Source: Candidatus Daviesbacteria bacterium (GTDB lineage Bacteria; Patescibacteriota; Microgenomatia; Daviesbacterales; UBA10151). Taken from it: 64,000 nt of DNA. Position 1 is the first letter of the stretch, and every line of letters starts with the position of its first letter. The position numbers and the translations under genes are program-made. The notes below the pieces were generated by a model. That model was not told the origin of the DNA. It was given only the letters and a program-made list of their open reading frames with translations, and did no database searches. This document shows positions 14,890-49,357 of this stretch, one piece after another. Where the stretch lies: positions 228,887-292,886 of the forward strand of contig JACPKM010000004.1 of the NCBI GenBank assembly GCA_016187025.1. Reading direction: 5' to 3'.

Positions 14890-15579
14890 TTAAGTTTTTT
14901 GCACTAAATCAGGGCGTACTTTTTCCGTTTTTTCAATAGATTTTTTACCTCTCCACTCTTTTATCAGTTTATGATCACCTGAGAGTAAAATAGAGGGAAC
15001 TGCTAAACCTTCAAAGTTTTCCGGCCGGGTATATTGTGGATGCTCCAACGTGTTGTCAGTGAAAGATTCATTGATTGTTGCTTCCTCTTTTTCTAAAACA
15101 CCGGGTATAAGTCTTGTGACTGAATCAACTATTACAAGAGCAGGAATCTCCCCTCCGGTTAAAACATAATCACCAATGGTAATTTCCTCATCAACGTAGT
15201 TATCAATAAACCTTTGGTCAACTCCCTCATAGTGACCACAAACTATGATGAGATGATCTAACTCTGAAAATTCTTTAGCTTTAGATTGTTTATACGGAAT
15301 GCCGGAAGCAGACATTAAAACAGTTTTTAGTTCGTAGTTTTTAGTTCGTAGTTTGAGAAGCGGTTTTACAGCTTTAGCTAAGATGTCTGCACGGAAAACC
15401 ATACCTGCTCCCCCACCATATGGCCGGTCATCAACTACCTTATGCTTACCTTCACCAAAATCCCGCAAATTAACAAGATCAAAAACTACTTTGCCTTTTT
15501 GCTGAGCTCTTTTGAGAATACTGCTGTTTAAGAATGGTTCAATGCTTTCTGGAAAAAGGGTGATTATGGAAATCTTCAT
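14890..15579 (-). CDS. trmD: tRNA (guanine37-N1)-methyltransferase TrmD
   Basis: MKISIITLFPE...RPYGGGAGMV signature of TrmD (SPOUT fold). Stop is 3 nt from the convergent pilO stop. Confidence 0.9.
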   Translation of the reverse strand: MKISIITLFPESIEPFLNSSILKRAQQKGKVVFDLVNLRDFGEGKHKVVDDRPYGGGAGMVFRADILAKAVKPLLKLRTKNYELKTVLMSASGIPYKQSKAKEFSELDHLIIVCGHYEGVDQRFIDNYVDEEITIGDYVLTGGEIPALVIVDSVTRLIPGVLEKEEATINESFTDNTLEHPQYTRPENFEGLAVPSILLSGDHKLIKEWRGKKSIEKTEKVRPDLVQKT

Positions 15580-15612
15580 GTTAAGTAACTCGTAACTTGT
15601 GACAAGTAAATT

Positions 15613-15885
15613 CTAACTTGTTACTTGTGCCTTGTCACCTGTTACCCCAGTAGCTGGTTCAACAAGTTGCAGATTAACCCTGACATTTTCTGCAATAGCC
15701 CGGACTGTTAGGAGTTTTCTTATTGCTTTAATAGTTTGTCCTTTTTTGCCAATAATAATTCCCATATCTTCCGGAGCAACAGTCAAGGTCAAATTAACAT
15801 CTCCTTCATCGGTTTGCTCACCAATTTCGACTGCGTCTGGCTTTGTCACGAGGCTTGTAACGATGTAGCTTAAAAGATCTTTCAT
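15613..15885 (-). CDS. KH-domain RNA-binding protein (YlqC-like)
   Basis: GIIIGKKGQTIKAIRKLL KH motif. Sits between rpsP and trmD as in the rpsP-ylqC-(rimM)-trmD cluster. Confidence 0.7.
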   Translation of the reverse strand: MKDLLSYIVTSLVTKPDAVEIGEQTDEGDVNLTLTVAPEDMGIIIGKKGQTIKAIRKLLTVRAIAENVRVNLQLVEPATGVTGDKAQVTS

Positions 15886-16229
15886 TCCGTAACTTCCTTT
15901 TTCTCAGATTCAACAGCAATTTCTGGTTGTGGTTGAGGAGTTGCCTGGGATTCTACTGGAGCGCTTTTTGCTTTTTTAGGTTTTCCCGGTGCTCTTTGAG
16001 GAGCTTTGCCAATGATTCTTAAAAACCCAACTGATAGTTGAGCGCCATTTTTTACCCAGTGGTCGATTCTGTCTTGATTTAGTTTAACCTCTTTTGGTTG
16101 GGTCAGGGGGTTATAAGTGCCGAGAGATTCGATATAACCACCGGTTCTTTTAGAACGTTCATCAACCGCCACCACGCGGTAAAATGGCCTTTTTCTTGAA
16201 CCTATTCTCATCAGTCTTACTTTAAGCAT
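15882..16229 (-). CDS. rpsP: 30S ribosomal protein S16 with Lys/Pro-rich C-terminal extension
   Basis: MLKVRLMRIGSRKRPFYRVVAVDERSKRTGGYIESLGTYNP. Start taken at internal Met (ORF extends to 16265). C-terminal tail APGKPKKAKSAPVESQATPQPQPE. Confidence 0.85.
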   Translation of the reverse strand: MLKVRLMRIGSRKRPFYRVVAVDERSKRTGGYIESLGTYNPLTQPKEVKLNQDRIDHWVKNGAQLSVGFLRIIGKAPQRAPGKPKKAKSAPVESQATPQPQPEIAVESEKKEVTE

Positions 16230-16277
16230 GGAATGAATTTTAACAATTACTGCACCAAATGGCAATCCCTGATTAAT

Positions 16278-16973
16278 TTATGGGGTGGTGAGGACTTTTA
16301 AGGCATTTGCTGCTGCGTTTTCTTCAGCTTCCTGTTTATTGCTGCCTTTACCTTTGCTGATGTTTTTGCCTGATATAAATACCCCGACTGTAAACTCTTT
16401 TGCATGGTCCGGGCCCTCAGTTGTTATGACCCGGTATTGAGGAGATTCCTTAAGTTTCTCCTGAACAACTTCTTGGAGTTGGCTTTTGGCATCTTTTGGA
16501 GGCCCAAAATGAATCTCTTTTTCAAACAGCGGAAGAAGGGTTTTTTCTATAAAGCTTTTGGCTGCCTCTAAACCTTTATCAATAAAAATGGTACCGATTA
16601 ATGCTTCATAGGTGTTGGCAAGAAGTTGTGGGTTTTCCCTTCCACCTGAGGCATCCTCCCCTTTGGACAAAAACAAATACTCACCCAAACCAAGCTGCTG
16701 GGCTGCCTTTGCCAAAGAAGGTGTTTTTACAATATATGACCTAAGGTTTGTTAAATCCCCTTCTGTATCGTCTGGTCTTTTGACATACAAAATATTTGAA
16801 ATCACAAAGGACAAGATAGTGTCACCTAAAAACTCCAATCTCTCATTTGACTGGATTTTTATTTTGGTCTCATTTAAGTAAGACCTGTGTATAAATGCTT
16901 GTTTTAGGAGATTTGAATCATCAAACTTGAGACCCAAACTTACCAAAAGTTTGTTAAACTTACCTTCACCCAT
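16278..16973 (-). CDS. rnc: Ribonuclease III
   Basis: FIHRSY...NERLEFLGDTILSFVIS RNase III signature box plus C-terminal dsRBD-like region. Confidence 0.9.
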   Translation of the reverse strand: MGEGKFNKLLVSLGLKFDDSNLLKQAFIHRSYLNETKIKIQSNERLEFLGDTILSFVISNILYVKRPDDTEGDLTNLRSYIVKTPSLAKAAQQLGLGEYLFLSKGEDASGGRENPQLLANTYEALIGTIFIDKGLEAAKSFIEKTLLPLFEKEIHFGPPKDAKSQLQEVVQEKLKESPQYRVITTEGPDHAKEFTVGVFISGKNISKGKGSNKQEAEENAAANALKVLTTP

Positions 16974-16977
16974 AAAC

Positions 16978-17214
16978 TTATTCTAAAGAGTTATCTTCTA
17001 CAAGCACCAAAAGATCTTCTAACTTCTGCAAGTTTTCAACATCTTCAGGCTCAAAAGTGATGTTGTATTTTTGAGATAACTCATGCAAAAGATCATTTAA
17101 CTCAATTGGTCCTAACCCGAGATCTTCTCTTAACAGACTTTGTTTATCAAGATCTTCGGCAGATAACCCTAAATGTTCTGCTATTGTTTCCAAGATTTCT
17201 CTATTTGTTGGCAT
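16978..17214 (-). CDS. Acyl-carrier-protein-like protein lacking the phosphopantetheine Ser
   Basis: 78 aa, acidic, 4-helix ACP-like spacing. Region EDLGLGPIELNDLL aligns to ACP EDLGADSLDTVELV, with the DSL Ser replaced by Pro. Sits directly upstream of rnc as acpP often does. Confidence 0.5.
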   Translation of the reverse strand: MPTNREILETIAEHLGLSAEDLDKQSLLREDLGLGPIELNDLLHELSQKYNITFEPEDVENLQKLEDLLVLVEDNSLE

Positions 17215-17230
17215 ATAGACACCTCCTTAA

Positions 17231-17593
17231 TTATATGATTTTTTCTGATTCTATTAACTTTCCCAAGACTCCATTAATAAAACCCGGGCTTGACTGGGCT
17301 CCAAACTCTTTGGCCAATTCAATTGCTTCATCTACGACCACTTTTGGTGGTGTGCCCTTCTTAATTATTAACTCAAAAATTGCTAAACGCAAGATAGCTA
17401 AATCAACCCGGTTGATTTGTTCTACAGGCCTATCTGGAGCCGATTGGGCTATAAGTTTATCAATCTTTTTTAAATTGTCAACTATAGGTTTAGATTTGCT
17501 AGACACAGTATTTACGTTGCTAAAATTCCAGGAAAAAAGCTCTTGCATCAGCCGGATACGTTTGATGTGTCTTGGGTCTGATTTGGTTTTCAT
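17231..17593 (-). CDS. nusB: Transcription antitermination factor NusB-like
   Basis: DPRHIKRIRLMQELF N-terminus and size (~120 aa) consistent with NusB. Confidence 0.65.
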   Translation of the reverse strand: MKTKSDPRHIKRIRLMQELFSWNFSNVNTVSSKSKPIVDNLKKIDKLIAQSAPDRPVEQINRVDLAILRLAIFELIIKKGTPPKVVVDEAIELAKEFGAQSSPGFINGVLGKLIESEKII

Positions 17594-17790
17594 TAAACCT
17601 TTGTTACTTTGACGGCTCCAGAGGAAACTTGTTTGTCACCATAAAAACCACACTCTTTACAAACAATGTGTGGAAGAGTTGGCTTGCCGCAATTCTTGCA
17701 TACAACCAAACTTGCTTGCTTTAACATTATTGAAGCACGTCTTGTTCTTTTCCGTGCTTTAGAGTGTCTACGCTTCGGTTCCTGAGACAT
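17593..17790 (-). CDS. rpmF: 50S ribosomal protein L32
   Basis: KRRHSKARKRTRRA...CKNCGK...CKECGFY zinc-ribbon L32 signature. Confidence 0.85.
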   Translation of the reverse strand: MSQEPKRRHSKARKRTRRASIMLKQASLVVCKNCGKPTLPHIVCKECGFYGDKQVSSGAVKVTKV

Positions 17791-17799
17791 AAAAATTTA

Positions 17800-19818
17800 C
17801 TAGTCAGGCATTACTTCTTTTGCCAAACTGGATAATTTTGCCTGAAGGGGTGGATATTTGTCAAGCGTAGGATCATCAGACAAAATATTTTTTGCAGCCT
17901 CCCTTGTTTTTTCAATTAATGTCAGATCAGAAAATGAGGCTATTTTTAAATCAAACCTGCCTGATTGTCTGGTGCCAAAAATTTCCCCTGCTCCCCTAAT
18001 TTTTAAATCTAGTTCTGCCAATTTTAATCCATCATCAATTTTTTCTAGGTTTTTTAGCCTGCTTATGGCTGATGAGTCAGAGCCTTCAGTAAAAAGCAAA
18101 CAATAAGATTGCTTCTCACCTCTGCCTACCCTGCCTCTTAGCTGATGCAGTTGTGCCAAACCAAACCTTTCAGCAGACTCTATTACCATGATTGTGGCAT
18201 TTGTTACATCAACCCCTACTTCGACAACGGAGGTGGCAACCAGGATATCTATTTTTTTATCTTTAAAACCGTTTAACACTTGCTCCTTCTCTTTTGATTT
18301 TAGTCTTCCATGTAAAATTCCAAGTTTTAGATCAGAAAAAACTTGCTTTTGTAGTTTTTCATACTCATAAGTTGCAGCTTTTGCCGAGGTTAAGGTTTCT
18401 GAAAGCTCAATTAAGGGGGTAATTATGTAAGCCTGATCACCGTCTTTAACTTTTTTTCTGATAAACTCATATGCATCAGTTCGTTTTTTTGATGGAACCA
18501 CATGAGTATTTATCTTTTTCCGGCCTTTTGGCAGCTCATCTATTACTGAGATATCCAAATCTCCATATAAAGTTAAGGCAACAGTCCTTGGAATGGGTGT
18601 AGCAGTAGTTGTTAAAAAATGGGGTAGTTTGCCCCTGCTTCTCAAAACCGTTCTCTGCCCTACCCCAAACCTTTGCTGCTCATCTATGATGACTAAACCT
18701 ACATCTTCGGTAATTAATTTATCTGAGAGTAAAGCATGGGTGCCGATTATCACATCTCCTTTTTCAGATTTTCTGCTTCCTGTATAAATTCCAACTTTGA
18801 TCCCCATTGGCTCAAGCAGTCTTGAAACAGTAGACAGATGCTGAAAAGCCAAAACCTCAGTAGGAGCCATAAAAAGAGTTTTGAGGCTGTTTAAATAAGT
18901 TACATACATAATCACAGCTGCAACAACAGTTTTACCAGAGCCTACCTCGCCTTGTATCAGCCGGTTCATCGGTTGGTTTCTCCCCAAATCATTTAGAACA
19001 TCTTTTATTACTCTTTTTTGAGCAGAGGTTAGCTCAAATGGCAGCCCTTTTATAAACTTTTCTACTTTTTTTATATTGGGGTTTAAAGGTTTGGTAGCAG
19101 GTTTATTTTTCCAGCTCAACCTCATCTTTTGGGTTGCCAGCTGAATATAGAAAAGCTCATCAAAGCCGAGTCTCTCTTTTGCTTTTTGCACATCTTCATA
19201 ATTTTTTGGAAAATGTATTTTGGAAATTGCATCATCTAAATCAAGCATGCTATCTTTAACCTCCTTTGGCAAAGGATCACTGATTTGCTCTTTCACCTTG
19301 GGAAGCATTTGAGAGATTTTTGCTCTTAACCATTTCGAAGTCAGCCCATAAGTTTCAGGATAAACAGGAACCAGTCTGCCAGTATGTAAGGTTGTAGTGG
19401 GTAGTGAGTAGGTTTCAGGTAACTTCTCCCAAACAGGGGCAACTATAGAGATTTTATTTTTGTATTTGCTCACTTTGCCTGAAACCTGTAACCTGTCACC
19501 TGTTTTTATCTGTTTTGTGAGCCAGCTTTGGTGAAACCAGGTTAACTCAATAGGACTGGTGCCATCATTAAAAATTGCCTGAGTAATGATTTTTCTTGAT
19601 CTGGTGAAGATGTTTCTAATTGACCAAATTTCGCCCTGTAAGGTCACTTTTTCACCTACTTTAGCATCTAAAGCACTAGATACATTGGAAAAATCATCAT
19701 ACCTAAAAGGGAAATGATAAATTAGATCTTCCAGAGTATAAAGGTTTAGCCTCTCTAGCTTTTTTGCAGTTGTGTACCCGATTCCTGATATTTGACTTAG
19801 CTGAAGCTTTAAATCCAT
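17800..19818 (-). CDS. recG: ATP-dependent DNA helicase RecG
   Basis: N-terminal wedge domain, Walker A GEVGSGKTVVA, DEQQRFGV (DExH), motif VI QLHQLRGRVGRG. 672 aa. Confidence 0.9.
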   Translation of the reverse strand: MDLKLQLSQISGIGYTTAKKLERLNLYTLEDLIYHFPFRYDDFSNVSSALDAKVGEKVTLQGEIWSIRNIFTRSRKIITQAIFNDGTSPIELTWFHQSWLTKQIKTGDRLQVSGKVSKYKNKISIVAPVWEKLPETYSLPTTTLHTGRLVPVYPETYGLTSKWLRAKISQMLPKVKEQISDPLPKEVKDSMLDLDDAISKIHFPKNYEDVQKAKERLGFDELFYIQLATQKMRLSWKNKPATKPLNPNIKKVEKFIKGLPFELTSAQKRVIKDVLNDLGRNQPMNRLIQGEVGSGKTVVAAVIMYVTYLNSLKTLFMAPTEVLAFQHLSTVSRLLEPMGIKVGIYTGSRKSEKGDVIIGTHALLSDKLITEDVGLVIIDEQQRFGVGQRTVLRSRGKLPHFLTTTATPIPRTVALTLYGDLDISVIDELPKGRKKINTHVVPSKKRTDAYEFIRKKVKDGDQAYIITPLIELSETLTSAKAATYEYEKLQKQVFSDLKLGILHGRLKSKEKEQVLNGFKDKKIDILVATSVVEVGVDVTNATIMVIESAERFGLAQLHQLRGRVGRGEKQSYCLLFTEGSDSSAISRLKNLEKIDDGLKLAELDLKIRGAGEIFGTRQSGRFDLKIASFSDLTLIEKTREAAKNILSDDPTLDKYPPLQAKLSSLAKEVMPD

Positions 19819-20353: not shown

Positions 20354-20379
20354 ATAAAAAACCCCCTATTGCTAGGGGG
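20354..20379 (-). terminator. Rho-independent terminator (minus strand)
   Basis: Perfect 7-bp stem CCCCCTA/TAGGGGG with 4-nt loop (20362-20379), preceded on + strand by ATAAAAAA, i.e. a U-tract after the stem on the minus strand. Downstream of the island operon/recG fragment. Confidence 0.5.
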
Positions 20380-20498: not shown

Positions 20499-20720
20499 TT
20501 AAGCGAAGTTTAAATTTCTAATTGACCAAATTTCGCCCTGTAAGGTCACTTTTTCACCTACTTTAGCACCTAAAGCACTAGATACATTGGAAAAATCATC
20601 ATACCTAAAAGGAAAATGATAAATCAAATCCTCAATAGTGTTTAAACTAAAGAAGCTTAGTTTATAGGCAAGGAATGATCCGATACCTGAGATTTGAATT
20701 AGAGTAGTTTTGAGATCCAT
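20499..20720 (-). pseudogene. Duplicated 5' fragment of recG (codons 1-~70), truncated
   Basis: Encodes MDLKTTLIQISGIG...EDLIYHFPFRYDDFSNVSSALGAKVGEKVTLQGEIWSIRN then stop. nt 20516-~20632 are near-identical (1-2 mismatches in ~115 nt) to recG nt 19614-~19730. More 5' part diverged. Confidence 0.6.
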
Positions 20721-27779: not shown

Positions 27780-30700
27780 CTATTTGAGTTGATTATAGGC
27801 GTTAGATAAATCTATTAACATTTGATCAGTAGTTTGGTATCTATTTCTTGGTTCTGGATCAAGCCCCTTAATAAATATTCTTTTAATACTATCAGGTATG
27901 TTTGCTGGAATTTCAAATCTTCCATTCGTATGGGCTTCATATTCTCTTTCTAGTAATCTTTGCGTTGATTCACCTTTAAATCTTGGAACATTAAATGGGA
28001 AATTACCAGTCATTAACTTATATAGCAATACTGTTAATTCATAGGTATCGCAGCTTAAAGTAACATTAGGGTTTTCTCTAAAAAGTTCTGGAGGTCTAAT
28101 ATGTCTATTTCCTCCTACAAACCCTCTCCTAAATTTCCCCCCGGTACCTTTAATGCTACCTGCATCAAAGTCGATTATTTTTATACCTTGCTCGCCCAGT
28201 AGGATATTAGAAAGTGCAATATCAAGATGTACAATACCTGCATTATGAAGCTCTCTTATAGTTTCTGCAATTTTTATAGTAGTAGCAATTGCTTGCTGGG
28301 GTGGTAAAGACCTATTTGTCGCAAAGTAATGCTCTAAATCAGTATTTTGAAGTGGATAAATTTTAATGATTTCGTCACCGTTATCAATTTCATCTATAAA
28401 AGTACCAAATGTAGGGCTTGTTGTTTGTGCCTTGATTATTGTTTCTAGATCTTTTACTCCATCTGGATAACGATTTGCTTTTGCAATGTATTCTCTTTCA
28501 CTCTTTTTTACCCTTTTAAACGACAAAATCTGTCCAGTTGTTTTATTGTATCCTGCAACAATTTGTCCCATTTGACCTGATCCTAAAGGTTTATCTAAAC
28601 AAACCACATAATCACCAAATTCTTGAATTTGCGTGCTCTCCTTTAGCTTTTCTAGATCATACTTTGGAGCAGTTGTTGTAGGTATAACTACTGGGTTTTC
28701 CTTATTAAACTGATCCAAAGCGTTATCCGCTTCTGCTTTTTCTGCTAACTCACGTTCTTTTCTTGTGATATCCAAGTTTTCTAGTTCTTTTTGGAATTCA
28801 TCCTCAAGTCTGGTAAGCTCAGCCAAAGTTTCTGGAGTTCCTTTACCTGCTTTTATATCTCTGAGTAATACTCCAATCTTTTGATAGTGTTTTAATCCTC
28901 TAACTAAAACATCCATATTTATTATAACCACATTACCATTTACTACTTTGTACTGGATTCCCGACCATCGTAGTGCACGTTGGTAATATTCAGAGTCCTT
29001 GCCAAGTCTTTCGCCATGTTCGTAAATATCAAGTGTTTTATTAATAACTGTCTCCAATCCTTCTTTGAATTTAGCAAGTTGAGCGGGATCATCGTAATTA
29101 ATATTTTCTCCTTCCCCAAGTTGCATTCTTCTGATTTCATCATCGAAGGCACTGAATTCTTTTTGCCATTGATCTAAAGGAACAATTCCATCCTTGATTG
29201 CGGCTATGGCTCGTCTGGCTGATGTGTATAGCCTGGATACTCTTGTTCCCGCGAAGGTAACTCTTTTATGGTCCTGTCGACCTTCAATAATTCCCCAGCC
29301 AATCGCAATATCTTCCCCGCCTTCAGAACCTGGTAAATAACCACCAATAGCAGCATAAATACTTCCACGAAACGCAAAGTTTGCTCCACTTGAAGGCATT
29401 CGCCCGCTGCGGTGGCGACCAATTACGGCTAAATTCTGAAACAAACGCGTACCAATATGTAATAGTGGATATTTAATATAAGCTTCCGGATCCCAATCGA
29501 GTTGACCCAGCATTCCATCTACTTGCGGGTTTTGTTCAAACTTCTGAATGAAGTTACTTAAATATGTTGGAGCAATACCTTTGTTATCTGCATCGTTACT
29601 TATTAAGATTATATCTTCTGCTTTAGGACCTCTCTGATATTGCCTAAAAAGTGCAATATCATTTAAATACTTTCTGATAGTGCCAATGTTTGCCTGCTTT
29701 ATAGGGAGCGCTTTAACTACCACTCTAATAGGCACATCAGGATGATCTTTTCTAAATCGTTCTATTTCTGATAAGGTGTTATCGGGTTTGACTGGTTCTC
29801 CTTGTTTATCAGTTTGTGGGTAATTTACAAAAAGCAAGATCTCATATTGGTCCTTAGAAGCATCCTGAGGTAGATAATTTGCCAAAGAGTTATAAATATT
29901 TCCTCCTTCTTGATGTCCTGCTACCGGAATACAAACTATAGCCTTTAAGTTCACCGAAGGTTCTTCTTTAATCTGTCCTGTTAACTGTTTTATTTCTTGA
30001 TAATATGCTGGATTCTGCTTTTCAAAATACATCTGTGCTTCTTGGTATGAATTTAGTTTTGCATTGGGGTTTTGCTTTAATGTTTTAGATCTATTTTTTG
30101 CTAAGATTTTCAAAATTTCCTCTCTTGGCCTGCCTCCATAAAGAGAGCCAGGAGGTATAAGTCTTTCTTCAAATGGTAGAGGGTGATATGGGGCAAAAGG
30201 GGTTGCCCAGAGCTTATCTGCAGGTATTTCTGCTGGTAAAGGTGGGATATATTTAATTGCTTCAGGCGGGGTAAGCTTAAACCCTTCGTGAGGCGGTCTG
30301 GGCTCAGGAATAGGAATTGCCTCCCCCGGAATAGTAGTTGGAATCTTTTGAACTTCCCCCGGACCAACTGTTGTTGAAAGTATAGTTCTTACCATGGATC
30401 CATCCGGCCTTTTTTCAACATGCGCAACCTCAATAAATTCTACATTCTGAAAGTTTCCCCATTTGTTCCTAATGGGATTTCCATTTTGATCCAGATTAAA
30501 TAAAGCTTTTGTTAAAGGAGAGTTAGCATCTAAATTAAGTTTTCCCTGCATAAGCTCCGGATGGGTTTGGGCATTAATTACCACTACTTGTCTTGCCTCA
30601 TCAGCTGCATGATCAGGAGTAATTAAAATCTCAAAATTTCGATAACCATTTTGAGAAATATCTTTTGCAAGCCTGCCGTATTGTGAATCAATGGAAAAAT

Positions 30701-33700
30701 CCCAGTTTACCCCTCTTTTTCCATCAGGCAGAAGCTGTGATCTCATCTGGGAAAAGTCCAGCTCAACTTGTCCATCTTTTACCCTGTGATGAAATTGCAG
30801 TTCTTTGCCGTCTATTCCAATTATATTGCCAGTATCCTTACTGCCTGCTGGTCTGCCGTCAGCAAATCTTCTTATGGTGTCGTTATCATGCCAAAGATCA
30901 CGTCTGGCCCGGTCTACCTCCCCAATTTCTTTATGTTCTCTTATAAAACCAAAAAAATCTTTATCAACAATCTTATCGGGACTTTTCTCATATCTTATTC
31001 CAGGAGGTGTTTCAAATTGCTTAGACTCAATTGCCCATCCTTCTGTTTTGAGCCTGGATTGGACACTGTCCCAGTTAACATTTGCATTAGCCGGATCCTG
31101 CGGGTCAAAAGACAAAGCTCCTTCCTGGTCAAAATGGCCCACAATCCAAGCATTATCAGGGCTTTTTATATCAGGGTTACCCAGAAAAATAGAAACAGAG
31201 CCACGGTCTTTGTTCAAATCCACAATTGAGCTTCCGTGGATAAAAGTTAAGTCCTGCTCCGGTGAGCTGGCAAAATTCTTAATCTTTTGATGAATATTAA
31301 AATCAGGGTTATCATAGATTTCTCTTGTCCATCCTGTATCAGTTACTAAATTTTTAATTTTTGGATCAAGGCTGGCTTCAGCTCCTGAAATAACCAGTGA
31401 GCCTTCTGAGGTAACCCTCACCGGAGGACCGGCAATTGTCTGCCCGGTAGCCCTGTCTATAAAATGTGCATTGTGCCCATTATCCGCTCCATAGTTTGTT
31501 GCTAAAGTCAGATCATTGTTAAGGTCGTAATTTTTAGGATTATCAAAAGTTTGTTTGAAAGTATCCCTTGCTAATCCAGGTGCTCTTGTAGGTGTCCACC
31601 TGGTTTCAAAAAAGCCCCTTCCATCCATCATGTTTTGAACACCCCTGACAGCCAGTCCTCCTGCAAATCCTAAGGTAGATGCAAAAATTGTTGCTCCAGC
31701 TGCCTGGCGGACTCTGTAGTTTCTTGCTGCTCCATTTTTTGCTCTTTTGTCATCACTGATTTCCTGGTCAACAACATCAAATTGCTCTGACAGTAAAGTA
31801 TTAAGTTGTGCCGCATCTGTAATCTGGGACCTTAACTTTTGCTCAAGCCTTGCTGCAGCATCAACCAACTGAGCAACTTCCTGATCTGCTAAAACATAAT
31901 TTTTACCGTAAGTTATATACTCACTTTTTTCTCTTCTTCCTCTAATAAGTCTTACTCTAATTTCCTGCATTCTTCTTGCTACTTCTTGCTGGTTGGTCGT
32001 GTTGGATAAATCCAATGTGAGTAATTGATCAACTCCCGCTTGGAGATGATTTTGACCTCCGCCATCAAGCAGTTGCTTTGCAGAAAAGGTTTGGTAGCGG
32101 GATCTTTCCATATCCCGCCTTCTTTCTGTACCACGCAGTCTTCCCCATAGCCCTCCATTTGCCTGCATATCAGGTACTGTTCCACCTAAAGCAACCTCTG
32201 CTGCATGCATTTTTTGCTGATGTGCGACCTCTCCTAGTCTTCTTAACCCTACAACTCCTCCTCCTGCAACCGCACCAAGAATTAATCCTCCTAATGGTCC
32301 TGCTAAAGCTGTGCCTCCAACTACAGCGCCTATCCTCACCCCGCCATTTGCAGCTTTTAGCAGCCCATCTGCCCCCAGCGAAACCGCTGCTCCCACAAAC
32401 AGAGGGTTTAGAATTGTTCCTGCCAGCAGACTGTCGCCGCCCTTTACTAAACTTTCAGCCCGTCTTCTTCTTGCCCAGGCAACAGTTTTATCTGTGGCTG
32501 TGAGGTTTTCGGTATTACCGGCAAATCTTGCATTTGCAAGCCTTATGGTGACATAAGCATCAATTTGGTCAGCTCCTTCCTGGTGTTTTGCCAGATTATC
32601 TTTGAGCTTTAGCCCCATTTCCAAAAGATCTGTTGCAAAATAATCAGCAATCTGCCCAAAACTTTCAGCTTGATTACCAAATAGTTGCCTGATTAAAGGA
32701 TTATCCATATTGTTTTGGACAAACTGAGTTAACTGCCTTCTAACATCTTCTTTTCTTTGTCTAATTTCAGCTTCATTTTGAGGAACATTACCAGTAACAA
32801 TAGGGGTAAGGATGTCTTTAATAATTTTGCCTCTTAAGTCATTTTGTTCAGGAGTGTTTTTATCTAGTGTAATAATTTGCTCTCCATTTAGAGTTTGATT
32901 TGCTTTTAATCTGCCCAACACTGCTTGCTGTTGCGCATCGGTACTGTGTCTTAGATCATTTAGTCTTTGTGCAGCTTCTTGAGAGAGGCCTCTCACTGGA
33001 GAGCCATCAAAAAATGATTTTCTCATCTTTTCGTACATTAGATTAACCGCTCCACCTCTGCCGAGTCTTACTCCTATCATTGAGGGAATTCTCCAAATAT
33101 CCCTCCAGCCTTTAAACTTCAAAAACTTTTCTACCTCTTTTTGTGCGTCCAGGTGCAAAACTTTTTCAATAACGTCTGTATTTCTGGTAATATTTATTTC
33201 AACCTCTCTTTGTTCTGGCTGAGAAGATGGAGATGGTTCTACTCCTGGTCTTCCTGGGGTGTCAACAGGTGCAGGAGCTGCAGCAGGTGCGCCGCCTGGA
33301 GCAGAAGCTGCAGGAGCTGGGGAGGGGGCAGCAGGCTGTTTGACAGGTTGCAGAGTATCTGGATCAACCAGCTCCCTTCTTGCCTCCAATGCAGGCTTGG
33401 CAACCTCAAGCCAGTCTTTATCTGGTTCTCCTCTTTTTCTGGAATCCTGATATGCAAAATACGCCTCTTGTTGTAAACGGGCTTTAAATTGTGGACTTGA
33501 TTCATCGTGAGCATCAGGATGCACCTCTTTATAAGCCTTACTGCTTGCTTTTAAAACTTTAATTGCATTTTGAATTTTCTTCCTCTCATTTTTATTAGTT
33601 GTAAAAAGAGCTTCCTCGTTTAACAGTTCAAGAAGCCCGTCAATCGGAACACCCTCACTTTGGCTGAAAGCTTGCCCTGTTTGGGGATCTGTAAAGTTGT

Positions 33701-34010
33701 TTGTAAAACTAAACCCGCCCTTTGCGATATCAGCTTTATTTTTAGGATCAGGTTGATTGCTGCTATCCGGGTGGGGTGCAAAAGCGCCTTGGATAGCTTC
33801 ATAAGCATGTCTTGCCTTGTTTATCTTACCTGTTTGATTGGGGTCTGCAAGCAAACTTGGGTTATTTAAAAGCCCCTCAATTTTTGTTAGTCCAAAACGT
33901 AGAGCATTTTTGACTTGTTGCCGGCTAGGAATTTCCGGGGTGTTAATTTTACCAGGATGACTTTCTATATCTTGAACTGAGACAGGGTTTTCTGTTGGTT
34001 GGCCGTTCAT
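27780..34010 (-). CDS. Giant (2076 aa) multidomain protein: Pro/Ala-rich linker, glycine-zipper hydrophobic segments, GT-A-like domain, C-terminal Ser/Thr protein kinase-like domain
   Basis: Pro/Ala-rich aa ~221-267 (nt ~33210-33350, locally GC-rich). Gly-rich hydrophobic aa ~528-589 and ~769-790 (GAAVSLGADGLL...GAVAGGGVVGL). GT-A-like aa ~1355-1580 (AIVCIPVAGHQEGGNI; ILISNDADN DxD). Pro-rich linker aa ~1222-1290. Kinase aa ~1795-2076: LGSGQMGQIV G-loop, LSFKRVKK, HNAGIVHLDIALSNILL catalytic loop, IIDFDAG (DFG-like). Confidence 0.7.
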   Translation of the reverse strand: MNGQPTENPVSVQDIESHPGKINTPEIPSRQQVKNALRFGLTKIEGLLNNPSLLADPNQTGKINKARHAYEAIQGAFAPHPDSSNQPDPKNKADIAKGGFSFTNNFTDPQTGQAFSQSEGVPIDGLLELLNEEALFTTNKNERKKIQNAIKVLKASSKAYKEVHPDAHDESSPQFKARLQQEAYFAYQDSRKRGEPDKDWLEVAKPALEARRELVDPDTLQPVKQPAAPSPAPAASAPGGAPAAAPAPVDTPGRPGVEPSPSSQPEQREVEINITRNTDVIEKVLHLDAQKEVEKFLKFKGWRDIWRIPSMIGVRLGRGGAVNLMYEKMRKSFFDGSPVRGLSQEAAQRLNDLRHSTDAQQQAVLGRLKANQTLNGEQIITLDKNTPEQNDLRGKIIKDILTPIVTGNVPQNEAEIRQRKEDVRRQLTQFVQNNMDNPLIRQLFGNQAESFGQIADYFATDLLEMGLKLKDNLAKHQEGADQIDAYVTIRLANARFAGNTENLTATDKTVAWARRRRAESLVKGGDSLLAGTILNPLFVGAAVSLGADGLLKAANGGVRIGAVVGGTALAGPLGGLILGAVAGGGVVGLRRLGEVAHQQKMHAAEVALGGTVPDMQANGGLWGRLRGTERRRDMERSRYQTFSAKQLLDGGGQNHLQAGVDQLLTLDLSNTTNQQEVARRMQEIRVRLIRGRREKSEYITYGKNYVLADQEVAQLVDAAARLEQKLRSQITDAAQLNTLLSEQFDVVDQEISDDKRAKNGAARNYRVRQAAGATIFASTLGFAGGLAVRGVQNMMDGRGFFETRWTPTRAPGLARDTFKQTFDNPKNYDLNNDLTLATNYGADNGHNAHFIDRATGQTIAGPPVRVTSEGSLVISGAEASLDPKIKNLVTDTGWTREIYDNPDFNIHQKIKNFASSPEQDLTFIHGSSIVDLNKDRGSVSIFLGNPDIKSPDNAWIVGHFDQEGALSFDPQDPANANVNWDSVQSRLKTEGWAIESKQFETPPGIRYEKSPDKIVDKDFFGFIREHKEIGEVDRARRDLWHDNDTIRRFADGRPAGSKDTGNIIGIDGKELQFHHRVKDGQVELDFSQMRSQLLPDGKRGVNWDFSIDSQYGRLAKDISQNGYRNFEILITPDHAADEARQVVVINAQTHPELMQGKLNLDANSPLTKALFNLDQNGNPIRNKWGNFQNVEFIEVAHVEKRPDGSMVRTILSTTVGPGEVQKIPTTIPGEAIPIPEPRPPHEGFKLTPPEAIKYIPPLPAEIPADKLWATPFAPYHPLPFEERLIPPGSLYGGRPREEILKILAKNRSKTLKQNPNAKLNSYQEAQMYFEKQNPAYYQEIKQLTGQIKEEPSVNLKAIVCIPVAGHQEGGNIYNSLANYLPQDASKDQYEILLFVNYPQTDKQGEPVKPDNTLSEIERFRKDHPDVPIRVVVKALPIKQANIGTIRKYLNDIALFRQYQRGPKAEDIILISNDADNKGIAPTYLSNFIQKFEQNPQVDGMLGQLDWDPEAYIKYPLLHIGTRLFQNLAVIGRHRSGRMPSSGANFAFRGSIYAAIGGYLPGSEGGEDIAIGWGIIEGRQDHKRVTFAGTRVSRLYTSARRAIAAIKDGIVPLDQWQKEFSAFDDEIRRMQLGEGENINYDDPAQLAKFKEGLETVINKTLDIYEHGERLGKDSEYYQRALRWSGIQYKVVNGNVVIINMDVLVRGLKHYQKIGVLLRDIKAGKGTPETLAELTRLEDEFQKELENLDITRKERELAEKAEADNALDQFNKENPVVIPTTTAPKYDLEKLKESTQIQEFGDYVVCLDKPLGSGQMGQIVAGYNKTTGQILSFKRVKKSEREYIAKANRYPDGVKDLETIIKAQTTSPTFGTFIDEIDNGDEIIKIYPLQNTDLEHYFATNRSLPPQQAIATTIKIAETIRELHNAGIVHLDIALSNILLGEQGIKIIDFDAGSIKGTGGKFRRGFVGGNRHIRPPELFRENPNVTLSCDTYELTVLLYKLMTGNFPFNVPRFKGESTQRLLEREYEAHTNGRFEIPANIPDSIKRIFIKGLDPEPRNRYQTTDQMLIDLSNAYNQLK

Positions 34011-40689: not shown

Positions 40690-41628
<939 letters not shown>

Positions 41629-41630
<2 letters not shown>

Positions 41631-41690
41631 GTTGTAGTGGGTAGTGAGTAGGCTGTAGTTGATTACTACCACCTACAACCTAAAACCTAC
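41629..41690 (+). promoter_or_regulatory. Intergenic imperfect hairpin between atpE and atpF
   Basis: GGTTGTAGTGGGTAGT...ACTACCACCTACAACC imperfect inverted repeat spanning the atpE stop. Contains a 24-nt exact copy of recG nt 19389-19412. Confidence 0.35.
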
Positions 41691-41702
41691 AAACTAATTT
41701 TT

Positions 41703-42197
41703 ATGGATATTTTAAGCCAGTTTGGAGTCCAACCAGTACTTTTGGCTGCGCAAGTGGTCAATTTTTTAATACTTCTTTTTATTTTAAAGAGGTTTTTGTA
41801 TAAACCTGTATTAAAGGTATTAGATGAAAGAAGAAAAAGAGTTGAAGAGAGTTTAAAAAACGCTGAAGAAATTGAAAAGAAATTATTAGAAACTGAAGAA
41901 GCCAAAAATAAAATTTTGGAAAAGGCCTCTTTAGATGTCCAAAAAATGTTGGATGAAACAAAGAAAGAAATTGAGGTGATGAAGGAGGAAGGTAAGGTAC
42001 AATCAGAGCAGATGGCAGCTCAAATAATTAAAAAAGGCCAGGAAGAAGCCCGGGCAGCTGTCGAAAAAATGGAACAGGAATTGATGAGTAAACTAGGAGA
42101 TATTGTGGCACTCGGTATGGAAAAAGTGACAGGAAAGGTTTTAAAAACATCGGATCAAAAAGAAATTATAGAAAAGACAGTTAGAGGTATGTCATGA
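41703..42197 (+). CDS. atpF: ATP synthase Fo subunit b
   Basis: N-terminal TM helix then long charged coiled-coil (EE/KK-rich). Operon position. Confidence 0.75.
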   Translation: MDILSQFGVQPVLLAAQVVNFLILLFILKRFLYKPVLKVLDERRKRVEESLKNAEEIEKKLLETEEAKNKILEKASLDVQKMLDETKKEIEVMKEEGKVQSEQMAAQIIKKGQEEARAAVEKMEQELMSKLGDIVALGMEKVTGKVLKTSDQKEIIEKTVRGMS

Positions 42198-42607
42198 AGA
42201 AGGATAAACAATTACAAAAGTTAATTAAAAAGCTGGTAGACTTAAGTTTTAAAGACGGAAAAATAGTGGAAAATCAAGTTATAAAATCCATTAAAAGTGT
42301 AAAATCTGCTCCAAAACCTCAAGCTATTTGGGCTTTGTCTGAATACCTAAAACAGTTAAAAAGAAAAGAAAGACAGTTTACTATGTATATTGAGTCAGCC
42401 ATCCCCCTTTCCCCCATTCAAGTCATGAAAATGAAAAGGATCGTTGAAAAAAAGGCAAAAATTACCAAAGTGTTAGTAAATATTAATCCTGAGATTTTGG
42501 GTGGATTTAAGTTAAGGTTAGGGGATGAAATTTGGGATGAATCATTGGTAGGTAAGATCCAACAGGTAAAGGAGGTAATCCATGGCAGATCTAATAAATC
42601 AAATTGA
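42194..42607 (+). CDS. atpH: ATP synthase F1 subunit delta (short form)
   Basis: Position between atpF and atpA, overlapping both. 137 aa (shorter than typical ~175 aa). Confidence 0.55.
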
Positions 42608-44102
42608 GTCGGAAATAAAAGGCTTAAAACTAAAAGCTGTCAGACAAAATGTAGGAAAGGTTACTGAAGTTGGTGACGGAGTGGCCCGTATTGAAGGACT
42701 CTCTGATGTTTTGGCCTCAGAAATGATTGATTTTGGTGGCGGGGTTTTCGGCTTGGCTCTTAATTTGGAAGAGTACAACGTTGGTGCTGTAGTGTTGGGG
42801 GATTTTACCAAGATTAAAGAAGGTGATGAAGTTAAAACAACCGGAAAAGTTTTACAAGTGCCTGTGGGGGATGCTTTAATCGGCCGGGTGGTTGATGCTT
42901 TGGGTAATCCGATTGACGGTAAAGGGCCAATCAAGACAAAAACCTCTTATCCTGTGGAAAAGATTGCACCCGGAGTTATCACCAGACAATCTGTTACCAC
43001 CCCACTTCAGACCGGAATTAAAGCCATAGATGCACTTATCCCTATTGGTAGAGGGCAAAGAGAGTTAATTATTGGTGATCGTGGCACCGGGAAAACTACC
43101 ATAGCAATCGACACCATCATTAACCAAAAAGACGTGGTTTGCATTTATGTAGCGATCGGTCAAAAAACCTCCAAAGTGGCACAGCTTGTTGCAAAGCTGG
43201 AAGAAGCCGGAGCTATGGACCATACTATAATTGTTGCAGCCACAGCCTCTGATCCTGTGACCATGCAATATATTGCCCCCTACTCCGGTGTGGCTATGGG
43301 CGAGTATTTTATGGACCAGGGAAAAGATGCTTTGATTATCTACGATGATCTGTCAAAGCATGCCTGGGCATACCGGCAGATGTCGCTACTTTTAAGGAGG
43401 CCTTCCGGACGTGAGGCATATCCGGGAGATGTGTTTTATCTTCACTCCAGGCTGTTAGAGCGGGCTGCCAGGCTGAATAAAGATTATGGTGGAGGATCTT
43501 TGACAGCTTTACCTATTATTGAAACTCAAGCAGGTGATGTGTCTGCTTACATTCCTACAAATGTTATTTCTATTACTGACGGGCAGATTTATCTGGAGAC
43601 AGACTTGTTTTTTGCCGGGATTAGACCGGCACTAAATGTGGGATTATCTGTTTCCAGGGTTGGTGGTGCTGCCCAAACTAAAGCTATGAAATCTGTGGCA
43701 GGAAGGTTAAAGCTTGATTTAGCCCAATTTAGAGAGCTAGCAGCTTTTGCCCAATTTGCCTCAGATTTAGATCCAGGAACAAAACAACAGATAGAGAGAG
43801 GAAAAAGGATCACAGAGGTATTAAAACAACCTCCCTACTCCCCTGTCCCAGTTGAAGAACAGGTAGTAGTACTTTGGGCTGTGACTAATGGATATTTAGA
43901 TGAGGTGGAAATAGAAAGGGTTAAGGAATTTGAGCAAAGATATATACAACACTTAAAACTGAGAAATAAGCAAAGCTTGCCATCTAAAGATGGTAAAAAA
44001 CTTTTAAGTGAGTTAGCAGAGAAAAAGGTTTTGGATGAAGGAATGGTTAAGGAATTGGAAAAAACTACTAAGGAGTTTACAAAAACCTATGGCAAGTACT
44101 AG
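42582..44102 (+). CDS. atpA: ATP synthase F1 subunit alpha
   Basis: P-loop GDRGTGKT, ...[42 protein letters not shown] alpha-subunit signature. Confidence 0.9.
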
Positions 44103-44928
44103 AGAACTAAGACGCAGAATAAGATCTGTCAAAAATACCAGCCAGATTACCAAAGCCATGCAGATGGTGGCGGCGACTAAAATGAGAAGAGCCCAAAACC
44201 AGGCTGTAAACGGCAGGCCTTATTCGGGAAATTTAATAGAATCACTTTCCAGATTACTTCCCAGGATTAACCCTGAGGATCATCTGTTACTTTCCGGAGA
44301 CGGTTCCCAAACTGCTGGAGTGGTAGTTTTGTCTACAGATAAAGGTCTGGTTGGAGCATTAAATACCAATATTGTCAGATCTCTAATGTCTGCTAATTTT
44401 CCAACAAAGACATTGTTTTACACAATCGGTAAAAAAGGTAGAAGTTTTGTGGCCAGAACCGGAAAGGATTTAAAAGCTGATTTTGAAAATACTGATGCTA
44501 TAACTTTCAGACAAGCTAAACAGCTGGCTAAGTTGTTAATTGATTCGTTTATGGCTGGTGAGATCGGAGAGGCCTATGTAATTTATCCTCACTTTGTGTC
44601 TACTTTAAGACAGGAAGCAACAAAAGTGAAGGTGTTGCCAATAGAAGCTGCAGAACTAAAAATTAGCAACGGAGAATTTTTGATAGAACCTAATCCTGAT
44701 GAGCTATTGGATGAGCTTTTAACCCATTTTGTAGAGATCAAGATTTATCAGGCGCTTTTGGAAACTAAAGCTTCTGAACATTCTGCCAGGATGATTGCCA
44801 TGAAAAATGCCACAGACAATGCAAAGGAGTTGATTGAAGATCTGCAGTTAACATATAATCAGACCCGCCAGGATGCGATAACCAAAGAAATTTTAGAAAT
44901 AGCAACAGCAGCAGTAGCAATGGAATAA
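44089..44928 (+). CDS. atpG: ATP synthase F1 subunit gamma
   Basis: [36 protein letters not shown] canonical gamma N-terminus. Start set at internal Met, overlapping atpA by 14 nt. Confidence 0.85.
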
Positions 44929-46299
<1,371 letters not shown>

Positions 46300-49251: not shown

Positions 49252-49261
49252 ATTGTAACAA

Positions 49262-49290: not shown

Positions 49291-49299
49291 CAAGCCTTC

Positions 49300-49339: not shown

Positions 49340-49357
49340 TACATGAAGGGCACAATA

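What the first reader, a model, noticed from the sequence alone, without database searches (positions are those of the whole stretch)
16978..17214. ACP-like gene whose phosphopantetheine-attachment serine is replaced by proline
The 78-aa acidic protein occupies the acpP position upstream of rnc and aligns to ACP helix II, but reads EDLGLGPIELNDLL where ACP has DLGADSLD. Without the Ser it cannot carry an acyl chain. No fab genes are nearby. A retained apo-only ACP fold implies a moonlighting/scaffolding role in a lineage that likely lacks fatty-acid synthesis.
Basis: partly seen in the sequence, partly recalled or inferred. Interest (0 to 1): 0.5.

Follow-up and report, generated by a model that had tools for sequence, protein, structure and literature searches.

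The report
Serine-less acyl carrier protein beside NusB
A tiny bacterium that cannot make fatty acids keeps its acyl carrier protein gene with the cofactor-attachment serine replaced, always between the rRNA factors NusB and RNase III and in several lineages fused to NusB, which suggests the protein now works in ribosome production.

Summary
Window 16978-17214 (minus strand) encodes a 78-aa acidic protein (pI 4.1). It passes the Pfam PP-binding threshold and folds as a four-helix ACP. It aligns without gaps to solved ACPs, with Pro36 exactly where the phosphopantetheine-bearing Ser sits. The organism is a Candidatus Daviesbacteria (Microgenomates, CPR).

Pro36 is invariant in 120/120 close homologues, and dN/dS is about 0.1-0.3. 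The gene lies in recG-rpmF-nusB-ACPL-rnc-rpsP-KH-trmD in 47/47 loci. No fab, plsX or acpS gene is in the 64-kb window.

The loss is much wider than this genome. 103 of 124 single-domain representative clusters related to it lack the Ser and carry P, D, E, K, A, T or other residues instead. Every divergent subfamily I looked up also sits between nusB and rnc.

The new finding is at least eight lineages of natural NusB-ACPL fusion proteins. None has Ser, and several have closer unfused than fused relatives.

Best reading: this is the positional orthologue of acpA/acpP. It can no longer be an acyl carrier and is kept as a partner of NusB, and perhaps RNase III, in rRNA antitermination and processing. 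The partner role is inferred, not shown. I found no prior description.

The parts
16978..17214 (-). ACP-like gene (ACPL), 78 aa. Four-helix ACP fold without the phosphopantetheine-attachment Ser.
   Evidence: ORF. Pfam PP-binding E=1.5e-8. AF2 pLDDT 88.6 with helices 4-15, 36-50, 56-60 and 65-75. Foldseek top hits are all ACPs, TM about 0.8. dN/dS 0.1-0.3.
17107..17109 (-). Codon 36 (CCA, Pro) at the position of the ACP DSL serine, the first residue of helix II.
   Evidence: Ungapped alignments to PDB ACPs. Invariant P in 120/120 homologues. P in 45 of 47 species-level loci, T in L006 and Q in L044.
17065..17109 (-). Helix II (residues 36-50), PIELNDLLxxLSxKF. It is the ACP 'recognition helix' and the best-conserved segment.
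   Evidence: E38, L39, D41 and L42 are invariant; N40, L43 and L46 are at least 90% conserved. Helix boundaries.
16981..17001 (-). Conserved acidic C-terminal motif VEDN(L/S)L(D/E), residues 72-78, absent from canonical AcpP.
   Evidence: E73 and D74 invariant, V72, N75 and L76 at least 90% conserved. Related motifs in other subfamilies: IEDKLLE, YLYENVDT, LVTDNVE.
17220..17228 (-). Shine-Dalgarno AAGGAGGTG in the 16-nt nusB-ACPL spacer, 5 nt before the ATG.
   Evidence: Read directly.
17231..17593 (-). nusB (120 aa), immediately upstream. Fused in frame to ACPL in several other Microgenomates lineages.
   Evidence: Pfam NusB E=3.7e-25. Adjacency in 47/47 loci and in all divergent subfamilies looked up. 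Fusion proteins.
16278..16973 (-). rnc (RNase III, 231 aa). It starts 4 nt after the ACPL stop. In other lineages the two genes overlap by 4-26 nt.
   Evidence: Pfam Ribonucleas_3_3, Ribonuclease_3 and dsrm. Overlaps seen.
17593..17790 (-). rpmF (ribosomal protein L32), overlapping the nusB start by 1 nt.
   Evidence: Pfam Ribosomal_L32p E=3.3e-21.
17800..19818 (-). recG, the upstream end of the conserved block.
   Evidence: Pfam annotation of the identical gene in L001 and L048. tblastn synteny.
14890..16265 (-). rpsP (S16), a KhpA-like KH protein and trmD, the downstream end of the conserved block.
   Evidence: Pfam Ribosomal_S16, KH_KhpA-B and tRNA_m1G_MT on the identical contig L004. Synteny.

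Best explanation
This is the positional orthologue of the housekeeping acyl carrier protein (acpP/acpA) in a Candidatus Daviesbacteria genome (Microgenomates, CPR). The fatty-acid synthesis genes that flank acp in other bacteria are gone. The attachment Ser is replaced by Pro, so the protein cannot be converted to holo-ACP and cannot carry acyl chains. It is nevertheless kept under purifying selection as a small, very acidic four-helix protein-binding module. It is always encoded between nusB and rnc in a tightly packed gene block. In at least eight lineages it is covalently fused to the C-terminus of NusB. The most likely function is therefore a partner or subunit of NusB, and possibly of RNase III, in rRNA transcription antitermination and co-transcriptional pre-rRNA processing, that is, ribosome biogenesis. 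Helix II and the conserved acidic C-terminus would be the contact surfaces. What is shown: the ACP fold, the absence of Ser, the conservation, the synteny and the fusions. What is inferred: a physical interaction with NusB or RNase III, and a role in rRNA synthesis.
For: Fold and Ser loss.

Conservation and selection: Pro36 in 120/120 homologues; median omega about 0.2.

Positional orthology with acpA: the ACP-rnc adjacency and the fapR-plsX-fabD-fabG-acpA operon in B. subtilis (PMC4838370; PMC1950310). The window protein is the same length as AcpP and aligns to it end to end without gaps.

No lipid genes: none in the window. CPR genomes are reported to lack ACP-producing and ACP-requiring enzymes (PMC7242380), and a closed Microgenomates genome lacks fatty-acid synthesis (PMC7143001).

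Breadth: 103 of 124 single-domain 50%-identity representatives lack Ser.

Link to NusB and rnc: nusB-ACPL-rnc in 47/47 loci and in every divergent subfamily looked up, at 19-38% identity to one another. The ACPL stop overlaps the rnc start by 4-26 nt in several lineages.

Fusions: fourteen NusB-ACPL fusion proteins of 188-206 aa were found, none with Ser. Each is followed directly by rnc. The fusions are polyphyletic. Their ACPL domains are 58-91% identical to unfused proteins but only 20-45% identical to other fusion lineages. The Amesbacteria fusion was seen on 20 contigs.

Fusion structure: AF2 gives pLDDT 95.5 and pTM 0.77, with one continuous helix joining the two domains. The two halves match NusB and ACP structures.
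Against: No direct evidence of a NusB-ACPL or RNase III-ACPL contact. The structure tool gave no PAE or coordinates, so the pTM of 0.77 is only a hint of a fixed domain arrangement.

The acp-rnc adjacency is ancestral (B. subtilis), so it may be a historical relic and not a functional link.

Adjacent same-strand genes fuse easily through loss of a stop codon, so fusions are weaker evidence here than for unlinked genes.

Between subfamilies ACPL evolves faster than its neighbours: 29-38% identity against 45-59% for NusB.

Canonical ACP has many other known partners (MukB, IscS/Nfs1 and others; see the PDB hits), and any of these could be the retained function.

Absence of acpS from the whole genome was not tested here.
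Confidence: 0.55

Rival explanations
1. The protein is an apo-only ACP retained for a different, already known moonlighting interaction of ACP, such as with an SMC/MukB-type condensin, a cysteine desulfurase, Rel/SpoT or SecA. Its position next to nusB and rnc would be only an inherited gene order.
For: The acpA-rnc-smc-ftsY order is ancestral in Firmicutes. Solved complexes of ACP with MukBEF (9gm6), Nfs1-ISD11 (8tvt) and respiratory complex I appear among the structural neighbours. Plasmodium mACP without a Ppant group still binds Isd11-Nfs1 (PMC8547962).
Against: This does not explain the repeated, evolutionarily persistent in-frame fusions to NusB. It does not explain why nusB, which I recall (not checked here) is not next to acp in B. 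subtilis, is invariably adjacent here. No smc, iscS or rel gene is in the conserved block.
Confidence: 0.25
2. The protein still serves lipid metabolism without a prosthetic group. It could be a non-covalent fatty-acid or lysolipid binding chaperone, or an allosteric partner of acyltransferases that handle scavenged host lipids.
For: CPR bacteria must acquire lipids and are enriched in lysolipids (PMC7242380). ACP has a hydrophobic core that can open to hold acyl chains.
Against: No lipid gene lies in the conserved block or in the 64-kb window. Core positions that I recall as lining the AcpP acyl pocket are bulkier here (T39L, V43L, I54F, A59V/I, A68L), which suggests a filled core. The fusion partner is a transcription factor, not a lipid enzyme.
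Confidence: 0.08
3. The protein is still a genuine carrier protein, modified at another residue or by an unknown transferase.
For: Ser47 in helix II is fairly conserved within Daviesbacteria (108/120). A few relatives carry Ser or Thr at position 36 (P0135, P0123, L006).
Against: Ser47 is Ala in 10/120. Across subfamilies position 36 is P, D, E, K, N, A, R, G, Q, H or L, so no nucleophile is conserved anywhere. All NCBIfam ACP models score far below their cutoffs (34 bits against 71). No PPTase is in the window. CPR genomes are reported to lack ACP synthase.
Confidence: 0.03
4. The ORF is a decaying remnant or a spurious ORF with no function.
For: Its original pathway is gone, and between subfamilies it is the fastest-evolving gene of the block.
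Against: Intact 72-90 aa ORFs are present in every locus examined. There are invariant residues, omega is about 0.2, the RBS is strong, the fold prediction is confident, and fusions persist within clades.
Confidence: 0.01

Closest known systems
Bacterial housekeeping acyl carrier protein AcpP/AcpA (PF00550; TIGR00517)
   Same: Same length (78 aa) and the same four-helix fold (TM about 0.8, rmsd 1.2-2 A). Same acidity (pI 4.1). Gap-free alignment end to end. Same chromosomal position directly upstream of rnc as B. subtilis acpA.
   Different: Pro, not Ser, at the 4'-phosphopantetheine site. Scores far below every NCBIfam ACP cutoff. No fab, plsX or acpS genes nearby. A new conserved C-terminal motif, VEDNLL(D/E). 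Adjacent to nusB and in some lineages fused to it.
Apicomplexan mitochondrial ACP lacking the Ppant group (Plasmodium mACP; Falekun et al. 2021, PMC8547962)
   Same: An ACP retained after loss of the local FASII pathway. The attachment Ser is replaced, and the protein is kept for a protein-binding role independent of acylation.
   Different: That case is eukaryotic and organellar, with the partner Isd11-Nfs1 (Fe-S cluster assembly). Here the organism is a bacterium, and genomic linkage and fusions point to NusB and RNase III. No LYR-motif protein or cysteine desulfurase lies in the block.
Mitochondrial ACP as a structural subunit of mitoribosome assembly intermediates (for example trypanosomal mt-SAF32, PDB 6sga and 6sgb; 7aoi, 7am2)
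   Same: An ACP-fold protein used as a structural module in ribosome biogenesis. These chains appear among the sequence matches of the window protein.
   Different: As I recall (not checked here), those ACPs keep the Ser, and binding goes through the acyl-Ppant arm to LYR proteins. Here there is no Ser, and the implied partners are the antitermination factor NusB and RNase III.
NusB of the NusB-NusE-boxA antitermination module (PDB 3r2d, 1tzt, 1eyv)
   Same: The N-terminal half of the fusion proteins is a bona fide NusB fold. The window NusB is the unfused equivalent.
   Different: No solved or described NusB carries an ACP-like domain; the best PDB coverage of the fusion model is TMq 0.49. 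The public annotation of the Amesbacteria fusion names only NusB.
DUF1493 (PF07377), an uncharacterised family scored here alongside PP-binding
   Same: Some D/E-type subfamily members score on DUF1493 as well as on PP-binding.
   Different: The hits are marginal (E about 1e-5, partial coverage). The window protein itself does not hit DUF1493.

Membership tests
Acyl carrier protein (functional ACP; PF00550 / TIGR00517 AcpP) | Four-helix-bundle carrier-protein fold | tested here: met
   AF2 pLDDT 88.6 with four helices. Foldseek top 50 hits are all ACPs, TMq 0.73-0.86.
Acyl carrier protein (functional ACP; PF00550 / TIGR00517 AcpP) | Sequence match to the PP-binding profile above the curated threshold | tested here: met
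   PF00550: 35.2 bits against a gathering score of 20.8, E=1.5e-8.
Acyl carrier protein (functional ACP; PF00550 / TIGR00517 AcpP) | Conserved Ser of the D-S-L motif at the N-terminus of helix II, the 4'-phosphopantetheine attachment site | tested here: not met
   Pro36 aligns to the Ser in ungapped alignments. It is invariant in 120/120 homologues. Other subfamilies carry D, E, K, A, T, N, R, G, Q, H or L.
Acyl carrier protein (functional ACP; PF00550 / TIGR00517 AcpP) | Reaches the NCBIfam equivalog or subfamily cutoff for ACP | tested here: not met
   Best model NF002148 scores 33.9 bits against a cutoff of 71. TIGR00517 scores 21.5 against 70.45.
Acyl carrier protein (functional ACP; PF00550 / TIGR00517 AcpP) | A cognate phosphopantetheinyl transferase (AcpS or Sfp) and acyl-ACP-using enzymes in the same genome | not testable with these tools
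   None in the 64-kb window. Whole genomes could not be scanned. The literature reports that CPR lack them (PMC7242380; PMC7143001).
Positional orthologue of acpA/acpP | Located directly upstream of rnc, where the fab operon ends in Firmicutes | tested here: met
   ACPL-rnc spacer of 4 nt. Conserved in 47/47 loci. B. subtilis operons from PMC4838370 and PMC1950310.
Ppant-independent ACP (Plasmodium mACP type) | ACP fold retained, Ser lost and the FAS pathway absent | tested here: met
   Comparison with PMC8547962.
Ppant-independent ACP (Plasmodium mACP type) | Binds an LYR-motif protein and cysteine desulfurase (Isd11-Nfs1) | not tested
   No such genes in the conserved block.
NusB-associated factor (proposed here; not an established family) | Conserved adjacency to nusB across divergent lineages | tested here: met
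   every locus examined.
NusB-associated factor (proposed here; not an established family) | Rosetta-stone fusion with NusB in some genomes | tested here: met
   Fourteen fusion proteins in at least eight lineages. The Amesbacteria fusion is on 20 contigs.
NusB-associated factor (proposed here; not an established family) | Physical interaction with NusB, NusE or RNase III | tested here: inconclusive
   The fusion model has pTM 0.77 and a continuous inter-domain helix, but no PAE or coordinates were available and no multimer prediction was possible.

The most novel reading that the evidence does not exclude
The serine-less ACP-like protein is a previously unrecognised, lineage-specific subunit of the bacterial rRNA antitermination and processing machinery. 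It would bind NusB, being covalently joined to it in some lineages, and couple it to RNase III. That would make it the first bacterial case of the acyl carrier protein being fully converted from a metabolic cofactor carrier into a transcription or ribosome-biogenesis factor. It would parallel the recruitment of ACP into mitoribosome assembly and Fe-S assembly complexes in mitochondria. It would also suggest that an ACP-to-ribosome-biogenesis link predates the loss of fatty-acid synthesis.
Probability: 0.4. Interest if true: 0.75.

Novelty: new variant of a known kind. Interest (0 to 1): 0.62.

Why it matters
ACP is among the most connected proteins in bacterial cells, and it is an open question why it binds so many non-lipid partners. 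Microgenomates offer a natural experiment. Fatty-acid synthesis and the prosthetic group are gone, yet the protein is kept under selection. The residual function is therefore exposed, free of the lipid role. The genomic evidence points to NusB and RNase III, that is, to rRNA synthesis. This is directly testable and would add a component to the antitermination complex in a large uncultivated radiation.

It also matters for annotation. These proteins are labelled 'acyl carrier protein', which wrongly suggests lipid or polyketide capacity in CPR metabolic reconstructions and horizontal-transfer surveys. The fusion proteins are labelled only 'NusB', which hides the extra domain.

Tried and rejected
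- Alternative attachment sites: Ser26 is mostly Ala, and Ser47 is Ala in 10/120. Both rejected.
- Spurious or decaying ORF: rejected by the conservation and by omega of about 0.2.
- Fusions as assembly or frameshift artefacts: rejected. They occur in several clades with 55-89% internal identity, come from independent sources, and one is on 20 contigs. P0225 alone, a single 1.8-kb contig that is 91% identical to an unfused relative, could still be an artefact.
- Other fusion partners: the only other Ser-less multidomain hits were a NIT-sensor protein (P0165) and a tandem ACP-like protein (P0179). Neither has a recognisable link to this family's context. No RNase III fusions were seen.
- Annotating the rest of the window through the look-up of encoding contigs failed for two proteins that are not on record. 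I used Pfam scans instead.
The four-sequence version returned only two loci.
- The listing of cluster members gave almost no taxonomy for the representatives.
- The promoter and terminator scan of 14.5-21 kb was no better than shuffles, so operon boundaries are not defined.
- Rfam found only two tRNAs in the window.
- Literature searches for a prior description found nothing relevant. They covered ACP with CPR or Patescibacteria, NusB with ACP and RNase III, and Microgenomates with ACP and NusB.
- A genome-wide test for acpS and fab could not be done, because whole contigs are not retrievable.

Full report
**1. What is there**

The finding's coordinates hold a minus-strand ORF, 17214 to 16978, with an ATG start, encoding 78 aa. 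A 16-nt spacer after the nusB stop codon contains AAGGAGGTG 5 nt before the ATG (read). The protein is very acidic: pI 4.1, with 20 D+E against 5 K+R.

It matches Pfam PP-binding above threshold, at 35.2 bits against 20.8 (E=1.5e-8). Every NCBIfam ACP model scores far below its cutoff; the best gives 33.9 bits against 71. phmmer against all PDB sequences returns only ACPs, and the alignments are ungapped. DLGLGPIELNDL lies on DLGADSLDLVEL, so Pro36 (CCA, 17107-17109) occupies the position of the phosphopantetheine-bearing Ser.

An AlphaFold2 model built on 54 homologues has pLDDT 88.6 and four helices, at 4-15, 36-50, 56-60 and 65-75. Helix II therefore starts at Pro36, exactly as it starts at Ser36 in ACP.

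**2. Organism and context**

A 100%-identical protein is annotated from Candidatus Daviesbacteria, a Microgenomates/CPR lineage. On the minus strand the gene order is recG (17800-19818), rpmF (17593-17790), nusB (17231-17593), ACPL, rnc (16278-16973), rpsP, a KhpA-like KH protein, then trmD. The spacers are 1-nt overlaps up to 16 nt.

No ORF of 100 aa or more in the 64-kb window hits a fab, plsX, plsY or ACPS family. The window holds a type IV pilus cluster, ATP synthase, aminoacyl-tRNA synthetases, a PBP, a giant kinase-domain protein and similar genes.

The literature reports the following. No CPR genome encodes a complete lipid pathway. [quoted passage not shown] A closed Microgenomates genome lacks fatty-acid synthesis (PMC7143001). 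I could not scan whole Daviesbacteria genomes for acpS, so that point rests on the window and on those papers.

**3. Is it a real, selected gene?**

Yes. Among the 120 best homologues (62-100% identity), Pro36 is invariant. So are L15, D21, L32, E38, L39, D41, L42, F54, D67, E73 and D74. The C-terminus carries a conserved VEDNLL(D/E) motif that canonical AcpP lacks.

A scan of one genome per GTDB species found 43 loci, mostly labelled Daviesbacteria. With four further loci, the nusB-ACPL-rnc order holds in 47/47. The residue at the former Ser site is P in 45 loci, T in one and Q in one.

Nei-Gojobori estimates on pairs with unsaturated dS give omega of 0.1-0.37, with a median of 0.2.

**4. Positional orthology with acpA/acpP**

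In B. subtilis, acpA is the last gene of fapR-plsX-fabD-fabG-acpA (PMC1950310). It is also the first gene of acpA-rnc-smc-ftsY (PMC4838370). From my own knowledge of that chromosome, not checked here, recG lies just upstream of fapR, and rpsP-ylqC(khpA)-...-trmD lies a few genes downstream of ftsY.

The Daviesbacteria block recG-[rpmF-nusB]-ACPL-rnc-rpsP-KH-trmD is thus collinear with the Firmicutes region, with the fab genes removed. Add the identical length and the gap-free alignment, and ACPL is best read as the degenerate orthologue of the housekeeping ACP, not a stray secondary-metabolism carrier domain. A caveat follows from this. The ACPL-rnc adjacency is inherited, so by itself it says little about function.

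**5. The loss of Ser is much wider than this genome**

A profile search of 1.84 billion 50%-identity representatives gave 1597 hits at E<=1e-3. Of the 124 single-domain proteins among the best 150, 103 lack Ser at the site. The counts are P 44, E 15, D 12, K 12, A 7, T 6, and a few R, G, L, H and Q. Ser appears in 21. The first DSLD-type sequence ranks about 30th (E about 5e-12), and such sequences stay a minority of the list.

A second search seeded with these divergent proteins recovered further subfamilies:
- DLGLNPVE...IEDKLLE;
- DLNITDLEIEDL...YLYENVDT, which includes a Curtissbacteria protein;
- DLNASKLETADI...LVTDNVE;
- several others.

I looked up contigs for eight divergent members, and two more loci came from a metagenome scan. 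In every case the gene sits between nusB and rnc, inside the same recG...trmD/pilM neighbourhood. In several lineages the ACPL stop overlaps the rnc start by 4-26 nt, which suggests translational coupling.

So the Ser was lost across many Microgenomates lineages, most simply by an old loss. The residue that replaced it is fixed within lineages but free between them. Helix II keeps the pattern DL(G/N)xxX(I/L/V)E(I/L)xDL.

**6. The new clue: fusion to NusB**

One representative, P0225 (204 aa), carries a NusB domain followed by a Ser-less ACP-like domain. Searching with it found thirteen more full-length fusions of 188-206 aa, 39-52% identical to it. At the former Ser site they carry K, N, P, T, E or D, and never Ser. 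The fusion gene is followed directly by rnc.

The fusions are polyphyletic. The ACPL domains of P0225, P0371, P0370 and P0378 are 91, 81, 77 and 58% identical to unfused proteins. Different fusion lineages are only 20-45% identical to each other. Within-lineage pairs (388/397/398; 409/433/465; 367/368; 428/475) are 55-99% identical. The fusion has therefore arisen, or been resolved, several times and has persisted within clades. A member of the P0409 cluster from Candidatus Amesbacteria (OGC98101.1, UniRef100_A0A1F4ZBV6) occurs on 20 contigs of up to 640 kb and is annotated only as NusB.

AlphaFold2 on fusion P0367 gives pLDDT 95.5 and pTM 0.77 in all five models. A single long helix (102-143) joins the last NusB helix to ACPL helix I. 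Foldseek matches the N-terminal half to NusB structures and the C-terminal half to ACPs (TMt about 0.93). No PDB chain covers both halves. I had no PAE or coordinates, so whether the domains pack against each other remains open.

**7. Mechanism proposed**

Shown:
- an ACP fold that cannot receive phosphopantetheine at the canonical site;
- no conserved alternative nucleophile;
- purifying selection;
- invariant placement between nusB and rnc;
- recurrent NusB fusions.

Inferred: ACPL acts as a small acidic protein-binding module that works with NusB, and possibly with RNase III. NusB is the boxA-binding component of the rRNA antitermination complex. RNase III cuts the pre-rRNA stems produced by that complex. 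The likely contact surfaces are helix II, which is the universal ACP recognition helix, and the conserved acidic C-terminal motif.

Core positions that I recall as lining the acyl pocket of E. coli AcpP are bulkier here: T39L, V43L, I54F (invariant), A59V/I and A68L. This is consistent with a filled core, but the pocket list comes from memory, so it carries little weight.

I put about 0.9 on "apo-only ACP fold, not an acyl carrier" and about 0.5-0.6 on "functions with NusB and rRNA processing".

**8. Rivals**

(a) The retained function is another known ACP moonlighting interaction (condensin, cysteine desulfurase, Rel/SpoT), and the neighbourhood is historical. This is plausible, but it does not explain the NusB fusions or the novel nusB adjacency.

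(b) A non-covalent lipid chaperone for scavenged lipids. No lipid genes are linked, and the fusion partner argues against it.

(c) Still a carrier, using another residue. No nucleophile is conserved.

(d) A dead remnant. This is refuted by the selection evidence.

**9. Comparison with what is known**

The closest functional precedent is the apicomplexan mitochondrial ACP. It lost FASII and the Ppant group yet is essential because it binds Isd11-Nfs1 (PMC8547962). Mitochondrial ACPs also serve as structural subunits of mitoribosome assembly intermediates, and such chains appear among the sequence hits (6sga, 7aoi and 7am2).

I found no paper describing a Ser-less bacterial ACP orthologue in CPR, or a NusB-ACP fusion. 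One study even lists acpP among genes transferred into Patescibacteria, with no comment on the Ser (PMC12455944). I therefore class this as a new variant of a known kind: an ACP-fold protein without its prosthetic group, in a new partnership.

**10. Verdict**

The added value here is the breadth across Microgenomates, the positional-orthology argument and the NusB fusions, which together give a specific and testable functional hypothesis. Interest 0.62.

Noticed in passing
window 20499-20720 (-): A 73-aa ORF duplicates the N-terminus of RecG (RecG_wedge, E=4e-5). It includes a near-identical stretch, EDLIYHFPFRYDDFSNVSSAL.AKVGEKVTLQGEIWSIRN. It lies about 700 nt upstream of the intact recG (17800-19818), with a terminator-like hairpin at 20362-20379 between them. 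This looks like a partial 5' duplication or an insertion scar.
   Followed up: partly
window 17231-17593 (-): NusB is short (120 aa). Only its C-terminal 78 residues match the Pfam NusB profile (profile positions 55-132 of 133). The middle of the canonical N-terminal half appears to be shortened, which may be relevant if ACPL complements NusB.
   Followed up: no
window 27780-34010 (-): A giant 2076-aa protein whose only recognisable domain is a C-terminal Ser/Thr protein kinase (residues 1805-2061). The first 1800 aa have no Pfam match.
   Followed up: no
window 40690-46299 (+) and 53095-53505 (+): The ATP synthase operon (a, c, b, delta, alpha, gamma, beta) lacks epsilon. atpC sits alone about 7 kb downstream.
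   Followed up: no
window 53805-53886 (+): A tRNA (Rfam, 56 bits) overlaps the mechanical TTG start (53827) of the 882-aa class A PBP ORF, so the true PBP start must lie further downstream.
   Followed up: no
window 48611-49353 (-): A PIN-domain toxin and RHH (CopG) antitoxin pair.
   Followed up: no
loci L006, L008, L010-L013, L016, L021-L023 and others: Many 'binchicken' MAG records titled 'uncultured Gammaproteobacteria bacterium' carry the Daviesbacteria-type recG-rpmF-nusB-ACPL-rnc block. The organism names in these records look like placeholders or mislabels.
   Followed up: no
L052 3001-4689: In one fusion-bearing genome, a Y1 (IS200-like) transposase gene and a Tad4-family gene are inserted between recG and the nusB-ACPL fusion gene, where rpmF normally sits.
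   Followed up: no
L048-L057 compared with the window: Between Microgenomates subfamilies, ACPL is the fastest-evolving gene of the block: 29-38% identity to the window protein, or undetectable by tblastn. The neighbours score 45-59% (NusB), 48-57% (RNase III) and 46-64% (RecG).
   Followed up: partly
P0356-P0366: A separate group of 125-145 aa ACP-like proteins keeps the Ser (DLGLNSLDAIELMF) and has a basic, Pro/Lys/Arg-rich C-terminal tail. Organism and context are unknown.
   Followed up: no
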